This document shows positions 3,118-64,000 of a DNA stretch of 64,000 nucleotides, piece after piece (positions within the stretch are counted from its first letter, which is position 1; each line of letters opens with the position of its first letter). The position numbers and the translations under genes are program-made. A model generated the notes under the pieces. The model did no database searches and had not been told where the DNA came from. It saw only the letters and a program-made list of their open reading frames with translations. Source of the DNA: Candidatus Uhrbacteria bacterium (GTDB lineage Bacteria > Patescibacteriota > Patescibacteriia > UBA9934 > GWF2-40-263); the NCBI GenBank assembly GCA_016844925.1, contig JAERTI010000043.1, positions 197,110-261,109 on the forward strand. Direction: 5' to 3'.

Positions 3118-3194
3118 TGGTACACCGGGTGGGATTCGAACCCACGGCCAAGAGATTAAGAGTCTCCTGCTCTGACCAACTGAGCTACCGGTGC
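3118..3194 (-). tRNA. tRNA-Lys (anticodon CTT)
   Basis: Reverse complement folds as a cloverleaf: GCACCGG acceptor, GGAGA-CTCTTAA-TCTCT anticodon arm, GGTTCGAATCC T-arm, encoded ACCA 3' end. Confidence 0.85.
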
Positions 3195-3223
3195 ATGTCG
3201 ACGGCCTTAGTATGCCAGGAGGA

Positions 3224-3252
3224 TTGACGAACGTCAAGATATGGGCTATTAT
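3224..3252 (+). promoter_or_regulatory. Sigma70-like promoter for tRNA-Arg
   Basis: TTGACG, 17-nt spacer, TATTAT, ending 13 nt before the tRNA 5' end. Confidence 0.5.
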
Positions 3253-3264
3253 CCCCCTCGCAAT

Positions 3265-3341
3265 GCAGGCGTAGCTCAGCTGGATAGAGCACTTGTCTTC
3301 GGAACAAGGGGTCGGGGGTTCGAATCCTCCCGCCTGCACCA
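3265..3341 (+). tRNA. tRNA-Arg (anticodon TCG)
   Basis: GCAGGCG acceptor, CTTGT-CTTCGGA-ACAAG anticodon arm, GGTTCGAATCC T-arm, CCA end. Confidence 0.85.
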
Positions 3342-8284: not shown

Positions 8285-8932
8285 ATGCAAGCCTTTTGGC
8301 ACCTCAAACAAACTGACATTTTTTCTGAGATTCCTGATGAGGAAATTAAACAACTCCTCTCAAAAAGCTCTGATGAATGTTTTCATTCCAAGCAAACGAT
8401 TTACACCCCAACGGATTTACAGAAGAAGATTTTTCTTGTGAAGACAGGGGAGGTTACGCTATTCCAGACCAAGGGCGGAAAGAGGATGATTATTGATATT
8501 GTGGCACCAGGTGGACTGTTCGGTGCCTTCGACCCAAGTGCTCTCACACTCGATCATTTTGCACAGGCGGCAGCAGGGACGCGGATTTGTGGGTTTGCCA
8601 CCGAAGATTTTTTAAAGATCCTCTCGACGCATCCAGGTGCCATGCTTAGTACGCTCAAGCAGCTCTCGCAGCGCATCGCAGATTATGAGCAAGTGCTGGT
8701 GGTGTCTCATGGGGAGGCAAAGGAGCGTGTGCTCCAGGCACTGAAGCGATATGCGAGAAAAACGAAACCGTTTCGATTGTTTAAAATGAATGCACAGTGC
8801 GCTCGTCTGACTCATCAAAAGCTGGCGCAGCTCGCCGGACTTAATCGCGTGACCGTCACACGTGTGATTCAGGAGCTTGTTAAAGATGGCATCATTGAAG
8901 TGGACCAAGAGACCAAAGAAATTTGTTTCTAG
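8285..8932 (+). CDS. Crp/Fnr-family transcriptional regulator
   Basis: cNMP-binding-like N-terminus (KTGEVTLFQTKGG...FG) and C-terminal HTH (LTHQKLAQLAGLNRVTVTRVIQELV). Confidence 0.7.
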   Translation: MQAFWHLKQTDIFSEIPDEEIKQLLSKSSDECFHSKQTIYTPTDLQKKIFLVKTGEVTLFQTKGGKRMIIDIVAPGGLFGAFDPSALTLDHFAQAAAGTRICGFATEDFLKILSTHPGAMLSTLKQLSQRIADYEQVLVVSHGEAKERVLQALKRYARKTKPFRLFKMNAQCARLTHQKLAQLAGLNRVTVTRVIQELVKDGIIEVDQETKEICF

Positions 8933-56835: not shown

Positions 56836-56898
56836 CCCCGGTTCGCCGGGGATTTTTGTTTGGAAAAGTAAAAACCCACCCGTCGTAGAGGGTGGGGG
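56836..56898. terminator. Convergent terminators: dtd on the + strand, nadE on the - strand
   Basis: ccccgg-ttcg-ccgggg-atttttg and aaaaacccaccc-gtcgtaga-gggtggg. Confidence 0.6.
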
Positions 56899-56904
56899 TG
56901 AGGC

Positions 56905-58866
56905 CTAGGCGGCCTCGAGGGCGTCCAGCTCGTCGAGCCAGACCTTGAGCAGGTTCACGTCCGGCGGAGCGCGCCAGTCGCCGCGGGGGGACAGCGCCAC
57001 CGAACCCATCTTGGGGCTCGAGGGGACGTTCTCCCGCTTGTACTGCATTCGGCTGAACCGCTTGTAGAACAGGCGGAGCCACTTGCGGATGGTGACCTGG
57101 TCGTAGGTGCCTTTGAAGGCGATGCCGGCCAGGAAGTCCGTCTTGGTGGCGCTGAAGCCGTGGCGCAGCAGGCACCAGAGGAAGAAGTCGTGCAGCTCGT
57201 AGGGGCCGACGATGTCTTCCGTCTTCTGTTCGATCTCCCCGGAATCGGGGCGCACCAGCTCGGGGCTGATGGGCGTGTCGACGATGTCGAGGATCGTGGC
57301 CGTGGCCTCGGGGAAGAGGTTCTTCTGCGCGACCCAGTTCACCACGTGCTTGATCAGCGTCTTGGGGATACCACCGTTGGGGTTGTACATGCTCTGTACG
57401 TCCCCGTTGTAGGTGCACCAGCCCAGGGCGATCTCGGAAAGGTCGCCGGTGCCGATCACGAAGCCCAGGTCCATGAGGATCTCGGTTCGCTCACGCGCCT
57501 GAGCGTTCTCGCACTTGAGGCACTTCCAGCACGGCTCGTGGCCGATGGCCTTGAGGCGGGCTGCCACCAACTCTTCGATGGGGATGACCTTGACGGTGAA
57601 GCCCAGAGCCTTGGGCAGGGCCGTGGAGTTGCGCAGAGTCCGCTCCGTGGTGCCGGGCCCCGGCATGGAAACGGCCGTCACGTCCTTGATGTCCCAGTCC
57701 ATGCGCTTGTACAGCTGGGCGAGCTCGAGGGCGGTGCAGGACGAATCCAGGCCGCCGGAGTTGCCGAAGACCACCTTGGGGCTCTGGCCGCGCCCCACAT
57801 GGAGCAATCGCCGGCGCAGGCCGATGATGGCGTGCATGAACACGTCATCGCAGCGTCGGTCCAGCGTCGCGGGGTTGCTGGGTACGAATGGGTGCGGGTC
57901 GATGCGTGCGTGCAAAGGCTTGTTCTTGAAGAACCAGTCGAGGCTGAAGGTCTCGACCTGTACGCGTCGCACGGGCGGGGCTTGGGCGATACACTCGCCG
58001 AAGCTGCCGGTGAAGATGCGTTCGTGGCGCAGTCGGCCGACGTCGATGTCTCGGATGAGCGACTGAGGCCCTTGCGCGAACCGTTCGGTCTGTCCGATCA
58101 CGTGCCCGCCTTGGGCGATGAGGCAGTGCCCATCGAAGACGACGTCTCCGGTGGACTCCTCGATGCCGCTGGCGGCGTAGACGTAGGCGCCGATCTGGTC
58201 GCCCGAGCGCTGCGCGATCATCTGTCGGCGGTAGTCCGCCTTGCCGATCTCGCTGTTGGATGCACTCAGGTTCACGATGATCTCGGCGCCAGCCACGGCC
58301 AGGAATGCTCCTGGCTGAATGGGGAGCCAGCCGTCCTCGCAGATCTCGACACCGAAGCTGCCGGCACACTGGCCGTCGAACATCAGGTCGAAGATCAGGT
58401 CGGTACCGACCGGCACCTCCTTGCCCAGCAGCGTCATGGTGCGCGACTTCAGGTGGCTCGCGGGCTTGAACCAGCGGGCCTCGTAGAAGTGCTTGCCATT
58501 GGCGAGCATGCTCTTGGGGATGACCCCGAGCACTTCGCCCATTTGGCAGACCACGGCGACGTTGAACAGCATGCCATCCATGACGAGCGGCATGCCGACG
58601 ACGATGACGGCCTTGACGCTCTCCGTCTTGGAGAGAAGCAAGCTCAGTGCCGCCAGAGCGGCGGTCTGCAGAGACGGCTTGAGGAACAGGTCACCGCAGG
58701 TGTAGCCCGTGAGCGAAAGCTCCGGGGTCACGATGAGCTGAACACCCTTCTCCATGCACGTGAGATCTTCGAGCTGTGCGATCTCCGCGGCATTGGCCAT
58801 GGGATCAGCAACGTGGACCGGTGGGACCACGGTAGCGACGCGGACGAATCCGAGGTTGGGTTCCAT
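56905..58866 (-). CDS. nadE: Glutamine-dependent NAD+ synthetase (nitrilase domain + NAD synthetase domain)
   Basis: N-terminal CN-hydrolase domain (VATVVPP...TPELSLTGY) and C-terminal PP-loop domain (GNSGGLDS); start set at MEPNLGF. Confidence 0.8.
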   Translation of the reverse strand: MEPNLGFVRVATVVPPVHVADPMANAAEIAQLEDLTCMEKGVQLIVTPELSLTGYTCGDLFLKPSLQTAALAALSLLLSKTESVKAVIVVGMPLVMDGMLFNVAVVCQMGEVLGVIPKSMLANGKHFYEARWFKPASHLKSRTMTLLGKEVPVGTDLIFDLMFDGQCAGSFGVEICEDGWLPIQPGAFLAVAGAEIIVNLSASNSEIGKADYRRQMIAQRSGDQIGAYVYAASGIEESTGDVVFDGHCLIAQGGHVIGQTERFAQGPQSLIRDIDVGRLRHERIFTGSFGECIAQAPPVRRVQVETFSLDWFFKNKPLHARIDPHPFVPSNPATLDRRCDDVFMHAIIGLRRRLLHVGRGQSPKVVFGNSGGLDSSCTALELAQLYKRMDWDIKDVTAVSMPGPGTTERTLRNSTALPKALGFTVKVIPIEELVAARLKAIGHEPCWKCLKCENAQARERTEILMDLGFVIGTGDLSEIALGWCTYNGDVQSMYNPNGGIPKTLIKHVVNWVAQKNLFPEATATILDIVDTPISPELVRPDSGEIEQKTEDIVGPYELHDFFLWCLLRHGFSATKTDFLAGIAFKGTYDQVTIRKWLRLFYKRFSRMQYKRENVPSSPKMGSVALSPRGDWRAPPDVNLLKVWLDELDALEAA

Positions 58867-58966: not shown

Positions 58967-59659
58967 TCAAGGGGTCAAGTTTCCGAGGATCCAGGAGAGG
59001 TAGTGATCGCGTGTGTCGTCGGTCAGATTGCCAGAGATCCTCTGATCCACCATCTGGAAGAGAATCGTGGCACGCAACCACTGAGCGAACGCGAAGGTAC
59101 GAATCCCTTGGTGGACGGTGTCCGGGTCGATGAACTGGGAGATGGGCATGCGCACGCGATCGATGCGCTCACCTTCGTCCTTGTTCCCCAGGCCCGTCTC
59201 GGGTCCCGTGACCTGATCGTCCTCGACGAAGACCACGGAGAGGAAGGCTCGTTCGGCGAGGATGCCAGCCGACAAGCTCATCGAGTGACCGCCGTTGAGC
59301 ATCTGCACGTCCTCTTCGGTGATGGTCGTGCCACACTCTTCCAGCGCTTCCTTGACCAGCAGGGCCTTGGGGCCCAGGTCGACGTCGAAGCGCCCCGCGA
59401 CGGTCTCGGTTTCCGCGCCGGTGGGGTTCTCCTCCCGGCGCTGGGAGAGGTGCTCCTGGCGAATCAAGATGACCTCGCCGCGCGTGAGATCGACGAGCAG
59501 GCCGTTGACCGAGTTGCTGACCCGGACGACTTCACGGTTGAACCCGTGACCGTCGTTCCAGACCTCTACGACGCAGAAGCCTTCGTGCGCGAGAGCAACC
59601 ACCTCAGGGGGGTATTGTTCTTCGGACATGGTTCCTTCTCCAACGATGTCTCTCTGCAT
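58967..59659 (-). CDS. Nudix hydrolase (ADP-ribose pyrophosphatase-like)
   Basis: Nudix-box-like GRFDVDLGPKALLVKEALEECG; ~230 aa. Confidence 0.55.
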   Translation of the reverse strand: MQRDIVGEGTMSEEQYPPEVVALAHEGFCVVEVWNDGHGFNREVVRVSNSVNGLLVDLTRGEVILIRQEHLSQRREENPTGAETETVAGRFDVDLGPKALLVKEALEECGTTITEEDVQMLNGGHSMSLSAGILAERAFLSVVFVEDDQVTGPETGLGNKDEGERIDRVRMPISQFIDPDTVHQGIRTFAFAQWLRATILFQMVDQRISGNLTDDTRDHYLSWILGNLTP

Positions 59660-59710: not shown

Positions 59711-60781
59711 CTAGTACAGCACGTCGCCGTTGTGGTCCCAGTTGCGGTAGCCGTGGCCGTCGGGCTTGTGCACGATGGACTTCATCACGGTGCCGCCGTT
59801 GGCTTCCTCGCAGCGGGCGAACGTGACGTTCACGCCGTGGGAGGGATCCTTGAAGATGCCGCCGACCAGGAACACGGGCGTGCCCCAGGGGAGGGGGTTG
59901 CCCAGGCTCAGGCCATCCGGGTTGTCCGGGATTTCGGCGATGAGCTCGAACGCCTCCTGGAGGGGTCCGATGTCGATCCAGTTGTCGGCGTTCCACTGCA
60001 CGACTTCCTGGTTGCTGACCTGGTAGCTTTCGGGTCGCCAGACCTCGCGGATCACGACCATCTGCACACCCATGTCACCGAGCACACGGATGTAGTCCAT
60101 GATGTCGTCGACGTTCGCGATGCCCTCGCGGTTGATCACCAGCGAGGCACGCACGAGCAGTCCGAGCTCTCGGGCTTGCTTGATCAGCCCGATGGGGCTG
60201 TGCTTCTGCAGCATCAGCGCACGGTTTGTGTCCGGCTCGTGGTGAGCGATGGACAGCGTGATCATGGTGAGGCCGGCGTCGACCAGCTTCTTGAGCAGAT
60301 TCTCCTTGGGCATGCCCGGCAGCATCAGGTAGCCGTTGGTGTGCATGTCCACGAGCGGGACGTACTCACGTGCCGTACGGATGACGTCGATCAGGTAGTC
60401 GTCGTCCTCCTGCGTGGGGTCCGCCCGTCCGGTGAGGATGGCGTGACTGGCCCCGAGCTGCTTGGCGTAGCCGAGTCCGACGCGGAGTCGGTCCATGTTG
60501 AAGGTCTTGCGAGTGCGCGGGTCCACGTCCGTGGTTCCAGGGGTGGTGCGGCTGATGCAGAACTTGCATCCGGCCGTACAGCGAGGGTTGTCGCTCATCT
60601 GGAACGAGATCGACTGCGCGCGCATCTGGCCCGAGCCGTGTGCGATGGGACGGGACTCCTCCGGCTCCACGGAGGAGCTGGCGCGCGCGGCGCGGAGCGA
60701 GTGCAAGAACAAGGTGCCTGCAGCACGAAGCGTGCCGCGCAGGCCGAATCGGGATCGGGTCATGGCTGTCTCCTTCAGCAT
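59711..60781 (-). CDS. Radical SAM enzyme of unknown specificity with a ~50-aa N-terminal extension
   Basis: CTAGCKFC (Cx3Cx2C) motif, then G-rich and NG motifs; AAGGAGA SD 6 nt before the first ATG. Confidence 0.65.
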   Translation of the reverse strand: MLKETAMTRSRFGLRGTLRAAGTLFLHSLRAARASSSVEPEESRPIAHGSGQMRAQSISFQMSDNPRCTAGCKFCISRTTPGTTDVDPRTRKTFNMDRLRVGLGYAKQLGASHAILTGRADPTQEDDDYLIDVIRTAREYVPLVDMHTNGYLMLPGMPKENLLKKLVDAGLTMITLSIAHHEPDTNRALMLQKHSPIGLIKQARELGLLVRASLVINREGIANVDDIMDYIRVLGDMGVQMVVIREVWRPESYQVSNQEVVQWNADNWIDIGPLQEAFELIAEIPDNPDGLSLGNPLPWGTPVFLVGGIFKDPSHGVNVTFARCEEANGGTVMKSIVHKPDGHGYRNWDHNGDVLY

Positions 60782-60861: not shown

Positions 60862-62154
60862 TCAGACCGTCTGGAGGACGTTGTAGGTCTCCTCGTAGCC
60901 GAACACGCGCTTGTAGCGCTCGATCTCCTCGGGGTCACCGATCGCCTTGGCGATGTTGTCCGAGAGCTTGACCGTGCTGTACCAGGTGCCGCCCACGTAG
61001 CGGGCGTACCAGGGCTTGATGACCAGCGAGCGGGTCGGGAGACCCAGGTCGTTGGTCAGGTTGGTGCCCCAACCGAAGCTCACCTTGATGCGGCCTCGGA
61101 AGTGGTAGAACAGCTTCAGAATGGTCGGCAGGTCCAGGCCGTCCGAGAAGATGAGCATCTTCCCACGCGGGTCGATGCCGAAGCTCTCGTACAGAGCGAT
61201 GAGCATCTCACCGTAGGCGATGGGGTCGCCCGAATCGTGGCGGAAGCCCTTCCACTGTTCCAGCTGCTTGCGCAGGAAGTCGCGGAAGAAGGCCTTGGAA
61301 CCGAAGGTGTCGGTCAGTCCGATGGAGAGACCTTCGCCGTAGGTGGCCCACCAGATGTTCAGCATCTCCTGCTGGCTGGCGAGCAGGGCCTTGTCCGGGT
61401 CTTCTGCAGCGCCCGTGAGGGCCGCGATGATCATGGGCTTCTGGTGGCCGTTGGTGCCCATCGGAAGCAGATCGTGGAGCATGGCGGATTCGACGTTGGA
61501 CGTGCCCAGGAACTGGCCCTTCAGCACTTCGGCCATGACCTGGTCCACGTAGTGCTGCCAGGCTCGGAAGGCGCGACGGCGCGTGCCGAAGTCGCAGACG
61601 AGCAGTCCGGGATGCTTCTTGATCTCGAGGATCTTTTCCCAGAGGCGCTTCTTGCCCTCGGCAATGACCACGTCTCGCTCCAGGCGCGACATGCCTCGCA
61701 GGCTCTTGCGCGTACGCAGGCCATTGATGGATGCCAGGCCGGGGACTTCCCAGTGGATGCCCTTGGACCAGAGGCCCATGAAGCGAAGGTCGAGCTGACC
61801 TTCGGGGGTCTCTTCCAGACCGAAGGTTGGCCGCTGAAGCGTGCGAAGGTGATCCATGTACGCGGGACCGAACATCCGGTCTCCGTATTCGTCGGTGCCC
61901 AGCACGTAGTGCAGCTCGGTTCGCTTGAACCGGTCGTCTTCCAGCGTCTCGAGGGTGGCGGTCAGCTCGTCGACGTCCAGCTCTTCTGCCAGAGGAACGT
62001 CGGTGTTCCGGTTGGTCAGGCGGTAGTCGACTTCGACGTTGCCATAGTGCAGCACGATGGGTTGCCCCATCGAGTAGGTATAGAAGTCGTCATCGAGCAT
62101 GCCGCCGACGACAGGCCCTTCACATGCGGCTTCGACAAGAGGGTCGCTCAACAT
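60862..62154 (-). CDS. pncB: Nicotinate phosphoribosyltransferase
   Basis: DDDFYTYSM N-terminus, DFGTRRR and GTSN blocks typical of PncB. Confidence 0.75.
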   Translation of the reverse strand: MLSDPLVEAACEGPVVGGMLDDDFYTYSMGQPIVLHYGNVEVDYRLTNRNTDVPLAEELDVDELTATLETLEDDRFKRTELHYVLGTDEYGDRMFGPAYMDHLRTLQRPTFGLEETPEGQLDLRFMGLWSKGIHWEVPGLASINGLRTRKSLRGMSRLERDVVIAEGKKRLWEKILEIKKHPGLLVCDFGTRRRAFRAWQHYVDQVMAEVLKGQFLGTSNVESAMLHDLLPMGTNGHQKPMIIAALTGAAEDPDKALLASQQEMLNIWWATYGEGLSIGLTDTFGSKAFFRDFLRKQLEQWKGFRHDSGDPIAYGEMLIALYESFGIDPRGKMLIFSDGLDLPTILKLFYHFRGRIKVSFGWGTNLTNDLGLPTRSLVIKPWYARYVGGTWYSTVKLSDNIAKAIGDPEEIERYKRVFGYEETYNVLQTV

Positions 62155-62203
62155 GTCTTTCTCCAGGTTGATGGTACAACCCCGCGATGATGGTCATCAC
62201 GGG

Positions 62204-62264
62204 GAGAAATCTGGACTCGAGGGTCTCGAGCGCAGGTTTCTTGTAAATAGGTCGCGCCGCCGAG
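62204..62264 (-). promoter_or_regulatory. Conserved leader element, copy 1 (upstream of pncB)
   Basis: aaatctggActcgag-ggt-ctcgagCgcaggttt imperfect 34-nt palindrome plus a conserved taaatagg...ccgag flank; shared with the nadD::nadK leader. Confidence 0.5.
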
Positions 62265-62328
62265 CCGAGACGGTCTCGACAGGGCGGGCGACAGAGTTGA
62301 TCATGACACGTCGTTCGCGAGCGACGTG

Positions 62329-63771
62329 TCAGCTGGGGAAGTAGAGTCCCCGGATCTTGGCGGCCAGGTCGGTCTCGGGGAAGAAGCCGAGGGTGGCCGC
62401 GTGGGTGCGCGAGAGGCGCATGGAGATGCGGATCACGTTGCTCATGCGAACCTTGCCGTTGAGCAGAAGCTGCATGGGGCGCTTGTGAGCCTGTTCGATG
62501 TCCACGGTGACTTCATCCTGCGCGCTGAGGCGGGCGAAGTTCCAACGCTGACCACGGTAGGTGGTGCCAGCGCCGACGAGGACCATCTCGGGCGTGCCGG
62601 CCGTCAGAGGCATGCCGCCGTAGGAGCGAGCCCAGCCGGTAGAGCCGGCCGCGGTGGCGAGCATGAGTCCGTCTCCGGAGAGCCAGTCGAAGACGAGCTC
62701 GCCGTTGAGGTAGACCCTCATGGCCCCGCTCTGCACAGACTCGCCGTTGCTCATCGCGCGGATGAACGCCTCGTTGAACGCGAGTTCCTTGATCTGACTT
62801 CCATCCTGAGCCAGAGCACTGACTTCCAGCAGAGGCTGTTGGTACAGGTGCACGATACCGCGACGCAGACGCGCCTCGAGTTCATCGACGGTTCCGTCGT
62901 TGAGCAGGAAGCCGACGGTGCCGGCGTTCAGACCGATGGACGGCCGTGGGTCGCCGAGGTTTCCTTGCACGCAGTCGAGCTTGAAACCGTCACCACCAGC
63001 TTCGATCCTGTGCGTGATTGGACCTTGGGCGAGTGCGTAGACGCGATCACACATGAGTGCCAGTGCGACCTCGCGCTCGCGGCGCTTCGGATCCTTGCTG
63101 ACGTTTACCAGCACCTGCGCGCGACCAGTCAGCTTCTGGCGGACCGGTCCCAGGGCTGCACCGCTGGTGTACAGGCGCCACTGGCGCATGTATGCGGCAA
63201 CACCGCGAGAGACGAGGTGTTCGTACTCCTCGTGCAGACCGGCACAGTTGCGGATCTCCTTGCTGGAGCCGGCACGGGTGTCCTTGAGAATCAGGCTGCG
63301 CGGAGGTAGGTCGCTCTGGTTGAATCGATAGCCTGCCCTGGGCAGGAACAGGAACCGAGATTGGGACCAGAGCATCTGGCCCTTGTGCCAGCTCTTGTGG
63401 ATCTGACTGTTCTGCGTGGCGCCGTTCTCGATCAGGTCTCCACCGATGACGATCCAGACGTCGTGCCCAGCAACCTTCAGGCGCTCATGAATGTCCCAGG
63501 TGCGCTCGTACTCGTCACGCTCCAGGTCGCTTAGGTCCAGGATGATGCGCGGATCGCGATCACCGAAGGCGATGCGGCACATGTTGGCACGGTGCAGGGG
63601 AGTGGTGTCCCCGTTGCTCTCTTTGTCCGGTCGACCTCCACAGGGGATGATCAGCAGACGGTCATCGGGGGTCATGTTCTCCAGGATGATGTCCACCATG
63701 CTTTCATGGTGTTTCCCGGGCGGGTTGAAACTTCCACCGAGGAAGTAGGTCCGTCCAGACGGTGCGTTCAT
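62329..63771 (-). CDS. nadD: Bifunctional NadD-like nucleotidyltransferase / NAD kinase fusion
   Basis: N-terminus FLGGSFNPPGKHH and GSSKEIR...VAAYMRQWRLY (NadD/NMNAT-like); C-terminus AGGDGF, NAGTVGFLL, FNEAFIR...DGLMLATAAGSTGWARSYGG (NAD kinase-like). Confidence 0.65.
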   Translation of the reverse strand: MNAPSGRTYFLGGSFNPPGKHHESMVDIILENMTPDDRLLIIPCGGRPDKESNGDTTPLHRANMCRIAFGDRDPRIILDLSDLERDEYERTWDIHERLKVAGHDVWIVIGGDLIENGATQNSQIHKSWHKGQMLWSQSRFLFLPRAGYRFNQSDLPPRSLILKDTRAGSSKEIRNCAGLHEEYEHLVSRGVAAYMRQWRLYTSGAALGPVRQKLTGRAQVLVNVSKDPKRREREVALALMCDRVYALAQGPITHRIEAGGDGFKLDCVQGNLGDPRPSIGLNAGTVGFLLNDGTVDELEARLRRGIVHLYQQPLLEVSALAQDGSQIKELAFNEAFIRAMSNGESVQSGAMRVYLNGELVFDWLSGDGLMLATAAGSTGWARSYGGMPLTAGTPEMVLVGAGTTYRGQRWNFARLSAQDEVTVDIEQAHKRPMQLLLNGKVRMSNVIRISMRLSRTHAATLGFFPETDLAAKIRGLYFPS

Positions 63772-63820
63772 GGGTTCCTCCGAAGGTCAAAGGGCGGGGC
63801 TCCAAGACCGGGATGGTCGT

Positions 63821-63879
63821 GGAGTAAAATCTGGGCTCGACTGGATCGAGCGCAGGTTTTAAATAGGCCCGCTGCCGAG
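63821..63879 (-). promoter_or_regulatory. Conserved leader element, copy 2 (upstream of the nadD::nadK fusion)
   Basis: aaatctggGctcga-ctgga-tcgagCgcaggttt with the same flanks (ttaaatagg, ccgag). Confidence 0.5.
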
Positions 63880-64000
63880 GAGGAGTACTCCAAGGCGGGC
63901 GGGCAAGGGGTGTGAACTACGAGAGTCGCTTCGCCAGGATGGCGCCGCGGGACGCCATGGTCCACAGGCCGACGTGGTGCGCGGCCTCGCGCGGGTGGCC

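What the first reader, a model, noticed from the sequence alone, without database searches (positions are those of the whole stretch)
62329..63771. Apparent NadD (NaMN/NMN adenylyltransferase) - NAD kinase fusion protein
The N-terminal ~190 aa carry the nucleotidyltransferase GGSFNPPGKHH (an HxGH-type variant) and the C-terminal NadD signature GSSKEIR...VAAYMRQWRLY. The C-terminal ~290 aa carry the NAD kinase blocks AGGDGF, NAGTVGFLL and FNEAFIR...DGLMLATAAGSTGWARSYGG. A single polypeptide catalysing NaAD formation and NAD phosphorylation is an arrangement I do not recognise as standard.
Basis: partly seen in the sequence, partly recalled or inferred. Interest (0 to 1): 0.55.

Follow-up and report, generated by a model that had tools for sequence, protein, structure and literature searches.

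The report
Fused NaMN adenylyltransferase–NAD kinase gene
One uninterrupted bacterial gene joins two familiar NAD(P)-making enzymes (a NadD-type adenylyltransferase and an NAD kinase) inside a nicotinamide-salvage operon; the fusion is real and conserved in well over a hundred lineages, but it is a new arrangement of known parts, not a new kind of system.

Summary
Window 62329-63771 (minus strand) is one 480-aa ORF. Residues ~1-205 match NadD-type nucleotidyltransferases and residues ~206-480 match NAD kinases. It is not an assembly artefact: an independent assembly is identical over 10.4 kb, and about 130 full-length homologues (28-79% identity) keep both halves with catalytic motifs conserved. 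The gene sits in an operon next to nrtR: PncA, fusion, PncB, radical-SAM protein, Nudix, NadE. That is the Preiss-Handler route from nicotinamide to NAD, plus the kinase step to NADP. The most likely function is a bifunctional NaMN adenylyltransferase/NAD kinase catalysing two non-consecutive steps. One twist: the HxGH signature reads GxHH, and the first His appears to have moved two positions, a pattern that co-varies across the family. Related architectures exist: stand-alone halves, a CobT-like triple fusion in Gemmataceae, and one four-domain protein carrying an extra canonical NadD. I found no paper describing the fusion; NCBI names a 73% homologue 'NAD(+)/NADH kinase'. Verdict: a real, conserved, uncharacterised domain architecture of moderate interest, and a new variant of a known kind. 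Activity is untested. I could not establish whether it is the only NadD/NadK in its genome.

The parts
62329..63771 (-). Complete fusion gene, 480 aa plus stop
   Evidence: ORF list and translation. Identical in an independent assembly. Full-length homologues.
63157..63771 (-). N-terminal NadD-like nucleotidyltransferase domain (res 1-205)
   Evidence: Pfam CTP_transf_like above gathering score. TIGR00482 E 9e-18, res 11-201. B. subtilis NadD 1kam E 3e-23. Stand-alone homologues of 201-205 aa end at this boundary.
63706..63738 (-). GGSFNPPGKHH (res 12-22): variant of the GxFxPx(H/T)xGH ATP-binding signature. Gly replaces the first His, and there is an extra His at position 21.
   Evidence: Residue-by-residue alignment to 1kam, GGTFDPPHNGH. 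Co-variation of positions 19 and 21 across 130 sequences.
63250..63270 (-). GSSKEIR (res 168-174): counterpart of the NadD ISSTxxR motif
   Evidence: Aligned to 'VSSTMIR' of 1kam. S170 in 113/130 and R174 in 130/130 sequences.
62329..63156 (-). C-terminal NAD kinase domain (res 206-480) plus stop
   Evidence: PRK04761 E 4e-29. PDB NAD kinases E ~1e-22. Foldseek TM 0.78 to LmNADK1. A stand-alone 271-aa homologue, P0023, occupies the same operon position in L008.
62986..62997 (-). GGDG (res 259-262), NAD kinase catalytic motif
   Evidence: Read directly from the sequence. Conserved in 128-130 of 130 sequences.
62614..62673 (-). DGLMLATAAGSTGWARSYGG (res 367-386): NAD kinase glycine-rich substrate-binding motif (canonical ...GSTAY..S.GG)
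   Evidence: Alignment to 2an1 and 7mh7. D367 in 121/130, G376 in 130/130, S377 in 123/130.
63775..63781 (-). Shine-Dalgarno GGAGGAA, 4 nt (3 intervening bases) before the ATG
   Evidence: Read directly from the sequence.
63827..63859 (-). 33-nt imperfect palindrome / hairpin in the leader of the fusion gene
   Evidence: Pattern search: 2 sites in 64 kb, 0 expected by chance. Conserved at the same position in L003. RNA fold z = -7.5. Covariation.
62207..62239 (-). Second copy of the same palindrome / hairpin, in the leader of pncB
63917..64000 (-). 3' end of the upstream PncA-like isochorismatase-family gene (cut by the window end)
   Evidence: L001 gene call plus Pfam Isochorismatase E 9e-7. 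Coordinates mapped.
60862..62154 (-). PncB, nicotinate phosphoribosyltransferase (430 aa)
   Evidence: Pfam NAPRTase E 3e-43 plus NAPRTase_N. NCBIfam PRK05321 E 3e-106.
59711..60781 (-). Radical SAM protein of unknown function (356 aa) within the operon
   Evidence: Pfam Radical_SAM E 1e-8. Only weak MoaA-like hits. 65-70% identical in L006 and L008.
58967..59629 (-). Nudix hydrolase (220 aa), weakly similar to ADP-ribose / NudK pyrophosphatases
   Evidence: Pfam NUDIX E 2e-4. PDB 1viu and 3o6z E ~4e-4. Gene call.
56905..58866 (-). NadE, glutamine-dependent NAD synthetase (CN_hydrolase + NAD_synthase)
   Evidence: Precomputed Pfam on the L001 gene call. Coordinates mapped.
56875..56896 (-). 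Terminator-like hairpin plus T-run directly after nadE; probable operon end
   Evidence: Consensus scan.

Best explanation
The gene encodes a bifunctional enzyme of NAD(P) synthesis. The N-terminal NadD-type domain adenylylates nicotinate mononucleotide (NaMN + ATP -> NaAD + PPi). The C-terminal domain is an NAD kinase (NAD + ATP or polyphosphate -> NADP). The gene is co-expressed in an operon next to nrtR with PncA, PncB and NadE. The locus therefore carries nicotinamide -> nicotinate -> NaMN -> NaAD -> NAD -> NADP, and the fusion supplies the third and fifth steps. These two steps are not consecutive, because NadE acts in between. The fusion most likely serves fixed-stoichiometry co-expression, and perhaps co-assembly, of the two ATP-dependent steps. 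The adenylyltransferase uses a rearranged ATP-binding signature in which the first histidine of HxGH has moved two residues (GxHH). What is shown: the ORF, both homologies, motif conservation, the operon context and the recurrence of the fusion. What is inferred: both activities, the NaMN preference and the reason for the fusion.
For: Both domains are supported by profiles and by a confident model matching solved NAD kinases. Catalytic and substrate-binding residues are conserved across 130 full-length homologues. N-domain: His22 114/130, R47 120, K50 109, W128 123, S170 113, R174 130. Kinase domain: GGDG 128-130, N282 127, N333 124, D367 121, G376 130. That pattern indicates purifying selection on both active sites. 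Positions 19 and 21 co-vary: Gly/Ala19 goes with His21 in 79 sequences, while His19 or Thr19 never has His21. This fits a relocated catalytic His better than decay. The operon supplies every other Preiss-Handler step (PncA-like, PncB, NadE) but has no separate NadD. The same synteny holds in relatives at 42-79% identity. An NrtR gene and canonical GT-N7-AC NrtR boxes lie just upstream. Stand-alone versions of each half exist, including a 271-aa NAD kinase at the same operon position in L008. Each half is therefore an autonomous unit.
Against: No activity was measured. All NCBIfam equivalog cut-offs are missed (NadD 65 vs 112 bits; NAD kinase 101.5 vs 211 bits), and Pfam NAD_kinase_C is below its gathering score. 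The canonical first His of HxGH is absent. In some distant family members the signature is fully degenerate (GRQQ in P0026; STFDPPSLSD in P0088, which also carries an extra canonical NadD). The NadD-like domain can therefore lose catalysis in some lineages. In L008 the operon lacks any NadD-like domain, which weakens the 'missing step' argument. The two proposed reactions are not consecutive, which is unusual for enzyme fusions. I could not check whether the genome has other nadD or nadK copies; none occurs in the 64-kb window.
Confidence: 0.68

Rival explanations
1. The C-terminal half is an active NAD kinase, but the NadD-like half is a non-catalytic pyridine-nucleotide-binding module. It might act as an allosteric sensor or an oligomerisation scaffold that tunes the kinase to NaMN/NaAD/NAD levels.
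For: The first His of HxGH is replaced by Gly. The N-domain scores lower than the kinase domain. Some relatives have a fully degenerate signature (P0026). One (P0088) places a canonical NadD (GGAFDPIHRGH) in front of a degenerate NadD-like domain, as if to supply the lost activity. L008 manages with the kinase alone at this operon position.
Against: In the window's subfamily, His22, R47, K50, W128, S170 and R174 are conserved. The missing His reappears at position 21 in strict co-variation with Gly/Ala19. Stand-alone 201-205-aa proteins with the same A/GxHH signature exist. The operon otherwise lacks the NaMN adenylyltransferase step.
Confidence: 0.13
2. The N-domain is primarily an NMN (not NaMN) adenylyltransferase. 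The two domains would then catalyse consecutive steps, NMN -> NAD -> NADP, and the fusion would channel newly made NAD to the kinase.
For: Enzyme fusions usually join consecutive steps. The signature resembles the eukaryotic NMNAT form, which I recall as GSFNPITNMH (from memory, not tested). The Planctomycete relatives carry Thr at position 19. pTM 0.90 suggests a fixed inter-domain geometry. Relatives' operons add nucleoside hydrolases and an ADP-ribosylglycohydrolase, which are nicotinamide-recycling functions.
Against: The locus encodes PncB (which makes NaMN) and NadE (which consumes NaAD). Both are pointless without an NaMN adenylyltransferase. The locus has no NMN-producing enzyme such as NadV or an NR kinase. 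The best profile matches are bacterial NadD (E 3e-23), not NMNAT (E 1e-11). Dual specificity is possible and would blur this rival into the best explanation.
Confidence: 0.1
3. Re-ordered pathway: the kinase domain phosphorylates the N-domain's own product, NaAD, to NaADP (NAADP). NadE then amidates this to NADP. The fused domains would then act consecutively.
For: This would explain why these two particular steps are fused. It parallels eukaryotic CoA synthase, in which an HxGH adenylyltransferase is fused to a kinase that phosphorylates the newly added adenosine ribose (from memory). The family-specific GSTGW in place of GSTAY shows some remodelling of the dinucleotide site.
Against: There is no direct evidence. 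The kinase motifs are otherwise canonical. A stand-alone orthologue occupies the same operon slot in L008. The many family members with GSTAY (101/130) are also fused. As far as I recall, characterised NAD kinases do not use NaAD efficiently (memory, not tested).
Confidence: 0.05
4. The fusion is an artefact: two adjacent genes merged by a frameshift, a lost stop codon or a chimeric assembly.
For: None was found. The only general ground is that high-GC DNA gives long spurious ORFs (see the overlapping shadow ORFs).
Against: An independent assembly has an identical sequence. A 79% homologue occurs on 15 contigs from several sources. About 130 full-length homologues down to 28% identity have a conserved junction, 'LYTGR..G'. 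GC3 is uniform in both halves, 0.77 and 0.80. The AlphaFold model is continuous and confident across the junction.
Confidence: 0.01

Closest known systems
Bacterial NadD (nicotinate-nucleotide adenylyltransferase; TIGR00482; e.g. B. subtilis 1kam, E. coli 1k4k)
   Same: Residues 1-205 align end to end with NadD. Shared features are GGxFxPP, the final His of the signature, the P..G.R.DK block, an invariant Trp (W128) and the SSxxIR motif. The pathway context (PncB upstream, NadE downstream) is also the same.
   Different: The signature is GxHH instead of HxGH. The score is below the equivalog cut-off (65 vs 112 bits). It is covalently fused to a kinase. 'TRTW' sits where NadD has 'SYTF'.
NAD kinase (NadK/PpnK; closest model PRK04761, the short ~257-aa type; structures LmNADK1 2i1w, M. 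tuberculosis 1u0t)
   Same: GGDG, NxGxxGFL, NE and DG....T..GST motifs are present. The two-subdomain fold superposes with TM 0.78 over the whole target.
   Different: It has no free N-terminus; a linker of about 8 residues joins it to the NadD-like domain. It reads GSTGW instead of GSTAY. It scores below the equivalog cut-off (101.5 vs 211 bits).
Other bifunctional NAD(P) enzymes: MJ0917-type NADP phosphatase/NAD kinase (NF010678), NadR (NMNAT + ribosylnicotinamide kinase), NadM-Nudix
   Same: The principle is the same: two NAD(P)-pathway activities on one chain. NF010678 matches the kinase part (E 1.5e-7). NadR is described as a multifunctional NAD enzyme in PMC2330246.
   Different: The partner domains and domain order differ. 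None of them pairs a NadD-type adenylyltransferase with NAD kinase.
Adenylyltransferase-kinase fusions of other cofactors (eukaryotic CoA synthase PPAT+DPCK; bacterial FAD synthetase RibF), recalled from memory
   Same: An HxGH-class nucleotidyltransferase and a kinase for the same cofactor sit on one polypeptide.
   Different: Those fusions catalyse consecutive steps. Here NadE should intervene. There is no sequence relationship in the kinase halves. This comparison was not tested here.

Membership tests
NadD / NMNAT nucleotidyltransferase family | Profile match to the cytidylyltransferase-like Rossmann domain across the full NadD length | tested here: met
   Pfam PF01467 23.7 bits, above the gathering score of 21. 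TIGR00482 E 9e-18 over 2-194 of 194 profile positions. 1kam E 3e-23.
NadD / NMNAT nucleotidyltransferase family | ATP-binding signature GxFxPx(H/T)xGH with both histidines (or Thr at the first position) | tested here: inconclusive
   The sequence is GGSFNPPGKHH. The last His is present (114/130 in the family). The first position is Gly, not His or Thr, but a His at +2 co-varies with it. The canonical form is not met; a shifted form is present.
NadD / NMNAT nucleotidyltransferase family | C-terminal ISSTxxR motif | tested here: met
   GSSKEIR aligns to VSSTMIR of 1kam. R174 is invariant in 130 sequences.
NadD / NMNAT nucleotidyltransferase family | NCBIfam equivalog threshold for NadD | tested here: not met
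   65 bits against a cut-off of 112.45. I therefore file it as a divergent NadD-like subfamily, not as an equivalog.
NadD / NMNAT nucleotidyltransferase family | NaMN (or NMN) adenylyltransferase activity | not testable with these tools
   Needs an enzyme assay or genetic complementation.
NAD kinase (NadK/PpnK) | GGDG motif with the catalytic Asp | tested here: met
   Residues 259-262. Conserved in 128-130 of 130 family members.
NAD kinase (NadK/PpnK) | NxGxLGFL, NE/D and DG...T..GSTAY..S.GG substrate-binding motifs | tested here: met
   NAGTVGFLLN, FNEAF and DGLMLATAAGSTGWARSYGG align to 2an1 and 7mh7. Trp replaces Tyr in GSTAY; across the family the position is Y in 101 and W in 23 of 130.
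NAD kinase (NadK/PpnK) | Two-subdomain NAD kinase fold | tested here: met
   AlphaFold pLDDT 91.5. Foldseek E 1e-16 to 1e-17 and TM(target) 0.76-0.79 to LmNADK1, P. aeruginosa and T. maritima NAD kinases.
NAD kinase (NadK/PpnK) | Curated thresholds (NCBIfam equivalog; Pfam NAD_kinase_C gathering score) | tested here: not met
   PRK04761 101.5 vs 211 bits. PF20143 17.7 vs 23.7 bits. It is a divergent member; homologues in the family do pass PF01513.
NAD kinase (NadK/PpnK) | NAD 2'-phosphorylating activity | not testable with these tools
   Needs an enzyme assay.
NrtR-controlled NAD regulon | Adjacent nrtR gene (Nudix + NrtR winged-helix domain) | tested here: met
   L001 8109-8783, about 1.2 kb beyond the window end, carries NUDIX + WHD_NrtR. 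It is conserved in L003, L005, L008, L065, L068 and L069.
NrtR-controlled NAD regulon | 21-bp palindromic operator with a GT-N7-AC core (PMC2330246) upstream of the regulated genes | tested here: inconclusive
   Boxes fitting the core lie at the nrtR promoter (TTTGTGTATAATTGACACCAA) and just downstream of nrtR, ahead of pncA, in L001, L003 and L005. The promoter box is also present in L008. None lies directly upstream of the fusion gene, so control would have to act through co-transcription from pncA. These boxes were found by eye, not by a calibrated scan.

The most novel reading that the evidence does not exclude
The NadD-like/NAD-kinase fusion family does not simply duplicate the housekeeping NadD and NadK. 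Instead it runs a channelled or re-ordered route in which the kinase acts on the adenylyltransferase's own product. One version is NaMN -> NaAD -> NaADP (NAADP), then amidation to NADP. In the Gemmataceae proteins that add a CobT-like NaMN-dependent phosphoribosyltransferase domain, the family might even build a non-canonical 2'-phosphorylated dinucleotide. The relocated catalytic His (GxHH) and the rigid two-domain architecture would be adaptations to this.
Probability: 0.06. Interest if true: 0.75.

Novelty: new variant of a known kind. Interest (0 to 1): 0.4.

Why it matters
NadD and NadK are essential, near-universal enzymes and antibacterial drug targets, and both are normally stand-alone proteins. 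A conserved natural fusion has several uses. It shows that the two ATP-dependent steps of NAD(P) synthesis can be physically coupled. It offers a compact one-gene part for engineering NADP supply. It gives a natural experiment on the HxGH signature, with the catalytic His shifted by two residues. It also flags an annotation gap: databases call these proteins just 'NAD kinase', so pathway reconstructions for these genomes would wrongly report NadD as missing. The nearest deposited relatives are labelled Parcubacteria and Uhrbacteria, and full-length relatives occur in Gemmataceae. None of this overturns known biochemistry unless the re-ordered-pathway reading proves true.

Tried and rejected
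Phage origin. I first suspected a phage NAD-reconstitution locus. There was no nucleotide match to 50,697 phage records. The only protein hits were weak and kinase-only. PHROGs gave nothing useful and PADLOC gave no hit. The window carries LeuRS, IF-2, RNase Y, ComEC and tRNAs, so it is a bacterial chromosome.

Sequencing or assembly artefact: rejected.

Known RNA families in the flanking leaders: Rfam found nothing at E <= 1.

The 33-bp palindrome as an NrtR operator: rejected as a canonical site because it lacks the GT-N7-AC core. Canonical-looking boxes lie near nrtR instead.

Gene neighbourhood of the Planctomycete homologues (L016): no NAD or cobalamin genes nearby, so it was uninformative.

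Second nadD or nadK copy in the window: none found.

The first attempt to scan genome contigs with the 24-sequence alignment failed because no stretch was conserved enough. A 10-sequence alignment worked.

Literature: four searches returned no paper describing the fusion. Subscription-only papers are not covered.

Model coordinates are not exposed to scripts, so I could not measure the distance between active sites or the domain interface.
Full report
OBSERVATION. The ORF scan shows one open reading frame at 62329..63771 on the minus strand. It is 480 aa long, starts with ATG and has no internal stop. A GGAGGAA ribosome-binding site lies 4 nt upstream. The + strand ORF that overlaps it (62326..63309) is an ordinary high-GC shadow frame. 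The window has 55.7% GC and the gene 62.8%. GC3 is 0.77 in the first half and 0.80 in the second, so the two halves show no compositional seam.

ARE BOTH DOMAINS REAL? Pfam places CTP_transf_like on residues 11-119, above its gathering score, and finds NAD_kinase_C weakly. NCBIfam is clearer. The NadD model TIGR00482 covers residues 11-201 over essentially its whole length (E 9e-18). The NAD kinase model PRK04761 covers residues 256-473 (E 4e-29), followed by about twenty other NadD and NAD-kinase models. All are below the curated equivalog cut-offs, so both halves are divergent members.

A profile built from 24 homologues was searched against PDB sequences. It hit B. subtilis NadD 1kam at E 3e-23 (profile positions 4-201) and bacterial NAD kinases at about 5e-23 to 1e-22 (positions 234-396). 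Eukaryotic NMNATs scored much lower (about 1e-11). An AlphaFold model built on that alignment is confident (mean pLDDT 91.5, pTM 0.90). It has a short linker of lower confidence around residues 201-210. Foldseek aligns its C-terminal half to solved NAD kinases with TM 0.76-0.79 normalised to the target. No PDB chain covers both halves; TM normalised to the query is at most 0.47.

IS THE FUSION AN ARTEFACT? No. The word-indexed search returned 26 relatives. Twenty-three of them are 457-496 aa and cover 95-100% of the query at 31-100% identity, and one further 440-aa relative covers 92%. They align without a break at the junction, where a conserved 'LYTGR..G' bridges the domains. The exhaustive HMMER search of 1.84 billion cluster representatives found 641 proteins at E <= 1e-30. 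About 125 of the best 150 are 440-500 aa and match the profile in one stretch from about position 4 to 473. A Logan assembly of run SRR13374099 is identical to the window over 10,464 bp. The 79% homologue occurs on 15 contigs from several projects.

ARE BOTH ACTIVE SITES MAINTAINED? I aligned 130 full-length sequences.
- Kinase domain: GGDG in 128-130 of 130, N282 in 127, G284 in 130, N333 in 124, D/E334 in 129, D367 in 121, G376 in 130, S377 in 123.
- N-domain: P17 in 122, H22 in 114, R47 in 120, K50 in 109, R61 in 126, W128 in 123, S170 in 113, R174 in 130.

The one anomaly is the HxGH signature. Aligned to 1kam (GGTFDPPHNGH), the protein reads GGSFNPPGKHH: Gly replaces the first His and His replaces the Gly. 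Across the family this is systematic. Gly or Ala at position 19 is accompanied by His at position 21 in 79 sequences. The 13 sequences with His19 and the 17 with Thr19 never have His21. I read this as a catalytic histidine relocated by two residues, not as decay. That is an inference. A minority (16 of 130) lack His22, and P0026 reads GRQQ, so some lineages may have lost the activity.

CONTEXT. The window is a bacterial chromosome, not a phage. It has no phage nucleotide match and only weak kinase-only protein hits. It carries LeuRS, IF-2, RNase Y, ComEC and two tRNAs. The nearest GTDB species representative is deposited as 'Parcubacteria group bacterium' (73% identity, fully syntenic). Other syntenic relatives are deposited as 'Candidatus Uhrbacteria', 'uncultured Gammaproteobacteria' and 'bacterium'. 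I did not verify these labels.

On the minus strand the gene order is as follows:
- NrtR (outside the window)
- a PncA-like isochorismatase-family gene (its last 84 nt are at 63917-64000)
- the fusion
- PncB (60862-62154)
- a radical SAM protein (59711-60781)
- a Nudix hydrolase (58967-59629)
- glutamine-dependent NadE (56905-58866)
- a terminator-like hairpin (56875-56896)

The core order NrtR, PncA-like, fusion, PncB recurs in relatives at 42-79% identity, with the PncA-like slot variable or unidentified in some relatives. Some relatives add an ADP-ribosylglycohydrolase, nucleoside hydrolases and PRPP synthetase. Sequences fitting the published NrtR operator (21-bp palindrome, GT-N7-AC core; PMC2330246) lie over the nrtR promoter and just downstream of nrtR in L001, L003 and L005; L008 has the promoter box. 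The locus is therefore a Preiss-Handler salvage operon. PncA, PncB and NadE are all present, and the only candidate for the NaMN adenylyltransferase step is the N-terminal half of the fusion.

MECHANISM. The best-supported reading is a bifunctional NaMN adenylyltransferase/NAD kinase (confidence about 0.68). The two reactions are separated by the NadE step. The fusion therefore probably gives co-regulation and fixed stoichiometry rather than channelling.

The rivals are these:
- A non-catalytic, sensor-like NadD domain (0.13). This is supported mainly by degenerate relatives and by P0088. In P0088 a canonical NadD (GGAFDPIHRGH) precedes a degenerate NadD-like domain (STFDPPSLSD) and the kinase.
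- An NMN-specific adenylyltransferase, which would make the steps consecutive (0.10).
- A re-ordered route through NaADP (0.05).
- An artefact (0.01).

Natural split forms exist. Stand-alone N-domains of 201-205 aa carry the A/GxHH signature (P0160, P0169). A stand-alone 271-aa kinase, P0023, sits at the same operon position in L008. These confirm the domain boundary and show that each half can function alone.

COMPARISON WITH WHAT IS KNOWN. Each half belongs to a textbook family. The combination does not appear in the PDB or in the searchable literature. NCBI names the 73% homologue simply 'NAD(+)/NADH kinase'. The architecture is nonetheless already present in public genomes, including cultured Gemmata strains. 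It is therefore un-described rather than unseen. I rate it a new variant of a known kind, with interest 0.4.

WIDER FAMILY. Full-length relatives at 27-30% identity occur throughout Gemmataceae and Isosphaeraceae. Their signature reads GSFDPPTxFH. In many of them the reading frame continues about 320 aa upstream into a DBI_PRT (CobT-like, NaMN-dependent phosphoribosyltransferase) domain. This gives proteins of 735-781 aa. Others carry an N-terminal extension of about 90 aa (P0090). Their gene neighbourhood is uninformative. These architectures keep open a small chance that the family does something other than housekeeping NAD(P) synthesis.

LIMITS. No activity data exist. The genome beyond the window was not searchable, so I do not know whether this is the only NadD/NadK. 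Taxon labels are as deposited. The NrtR boxes were found by eye.

Noticed in passing
window 63827-63859 and 62207-62239 (sense strand is minus); whole leaders 63772-63916 and 62155-62328: A 33-nt imperfect palindrome (sense: AAACCTGCGCTCGA-N5-TCGAGYCCAGATTT) precedes both the fusion gene and pncB. There are 2 sites in 64 kb against 0 expected. Each leader folds into three consecutive hairpins with z = -7.5. The third hairpin pairs a CUCC with a GGAG just ahead of the real Shine-Dalgarno. The element is conserved at the same positions in L003, L006, L065 and L069. In 9 of 22 pairs both sides have changed while pairing is kept. It is not in Rfam and is not a canonical NrtR box. It may be an uncharacterised cis-regulatory leader RNA, or the operator of another regulator, in NAD salvage operons.
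   Followed up: partly
window 59711-60781 (-): A radical SAM protein (CxxxCxxC present) is embedded in the NAD salvage operon. It has only weak MoaA-like similarity and no PADLOC hit. It is 65-70% identical in L006 and L008, where the fusion is only 42-45% identical. It also recurs in L065 and L068. Its function in NAD metabolism is unknown.
   Followed up: partly
L016 7041-9386, L010 7179-9386, P0097 (Gemmataceae and other Planctomycetes): A triple fusion: CobT-like DBI_PRT (NaMN-dependent phosphoribosyltransferase) + NadD-like + NAD kinase, 735-781 aa. The frame is open in about 10 independent loci and confirmed by Pfam in three proteins. The gene context is uninformative.
   Followed up: partly
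P0088 (762 aa) and P0090 (548 aa), metagenomic representatives: P0088 has four parts: an N-terminal module of about 90 aa, a canonical NadD (GGAFDPIHRGH), a degenerate NadD-like domain (STFDPPSLSD) and an NAD kinase. P0090 has the same N-terminal module in front of the two-domain fusion. This suggests the NadD-like domain has become non-catalytic in some lineages.
   Followed up: partly
L001 8068-8090 and about 8829-8849 (1-1.3 kb beyond the window's right end); same positions in L003 and L005 (first box also in L008): 21-bp palindromes fit the published NrtR operator core GT-N7-AC. One overlaps the -10 box of the nrtR promoter (TTTGTGTATAATTGACACCAA). One lies just downstream of nrtR, ahead of pncA (TTAGTGTAATTTATACATCAT).
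   Followed up: partly
window 44087-53560 (+): Six tandem ORFs of 494-525 aa lie head to tail. The two I scanned (44087-45664 and 50413-51963) have no Pfam hit. They look like a paralogous array of unknown proteins. Homologous ~510-530-aa genes without Pfam hits flank the operon in L002 and L003.
   Followed up: no
window 58967-59629 (-): A 220-aa Nudix hydrolase lies between the radical SAM gene and nadE. It is weakly similar to ADP-ribose and NudK pyrophosphatases and is conserved in L003, L006 and L065. It could remove ADP-ribose, the reported NrtR effector (PMC2330246).
   Followed up: partly
L006 2971-4077; L006 5393-6538 and 8680-9747; L068 10616-11710 and 13347 onward; L069 9059-10105: Relatives' versions of the operon carry extra genes: an ADP-ribosylglycohydrolase (E 4e-52) inserted between the fusion and pncB, inosine-uridine-type nucleoside hydrolases, and PRPP synthetase. 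These extend the locus towards recycling of NAD breakdown products.
   Followed up: partly
L001 3415-3447 (outside the window): A third, weaker copy of the palindrome core (CAACCTTCGCTCGA-N5-TCGAGCGCTGGTTC) lies at the 3' end of a 242-aa gene that converges on a Na+/H+ exchanger gene. The hairpin core may therefore also serve as a terminator elsewhere.
   Followed up: no
window 3118-3341: A divergent pair of tRNA genes, tRNA-Lys(CTT) on the minus strand and tRNA-Arg(TCG) on the plus strand, lies 70 bp apart.
   Followed up: no
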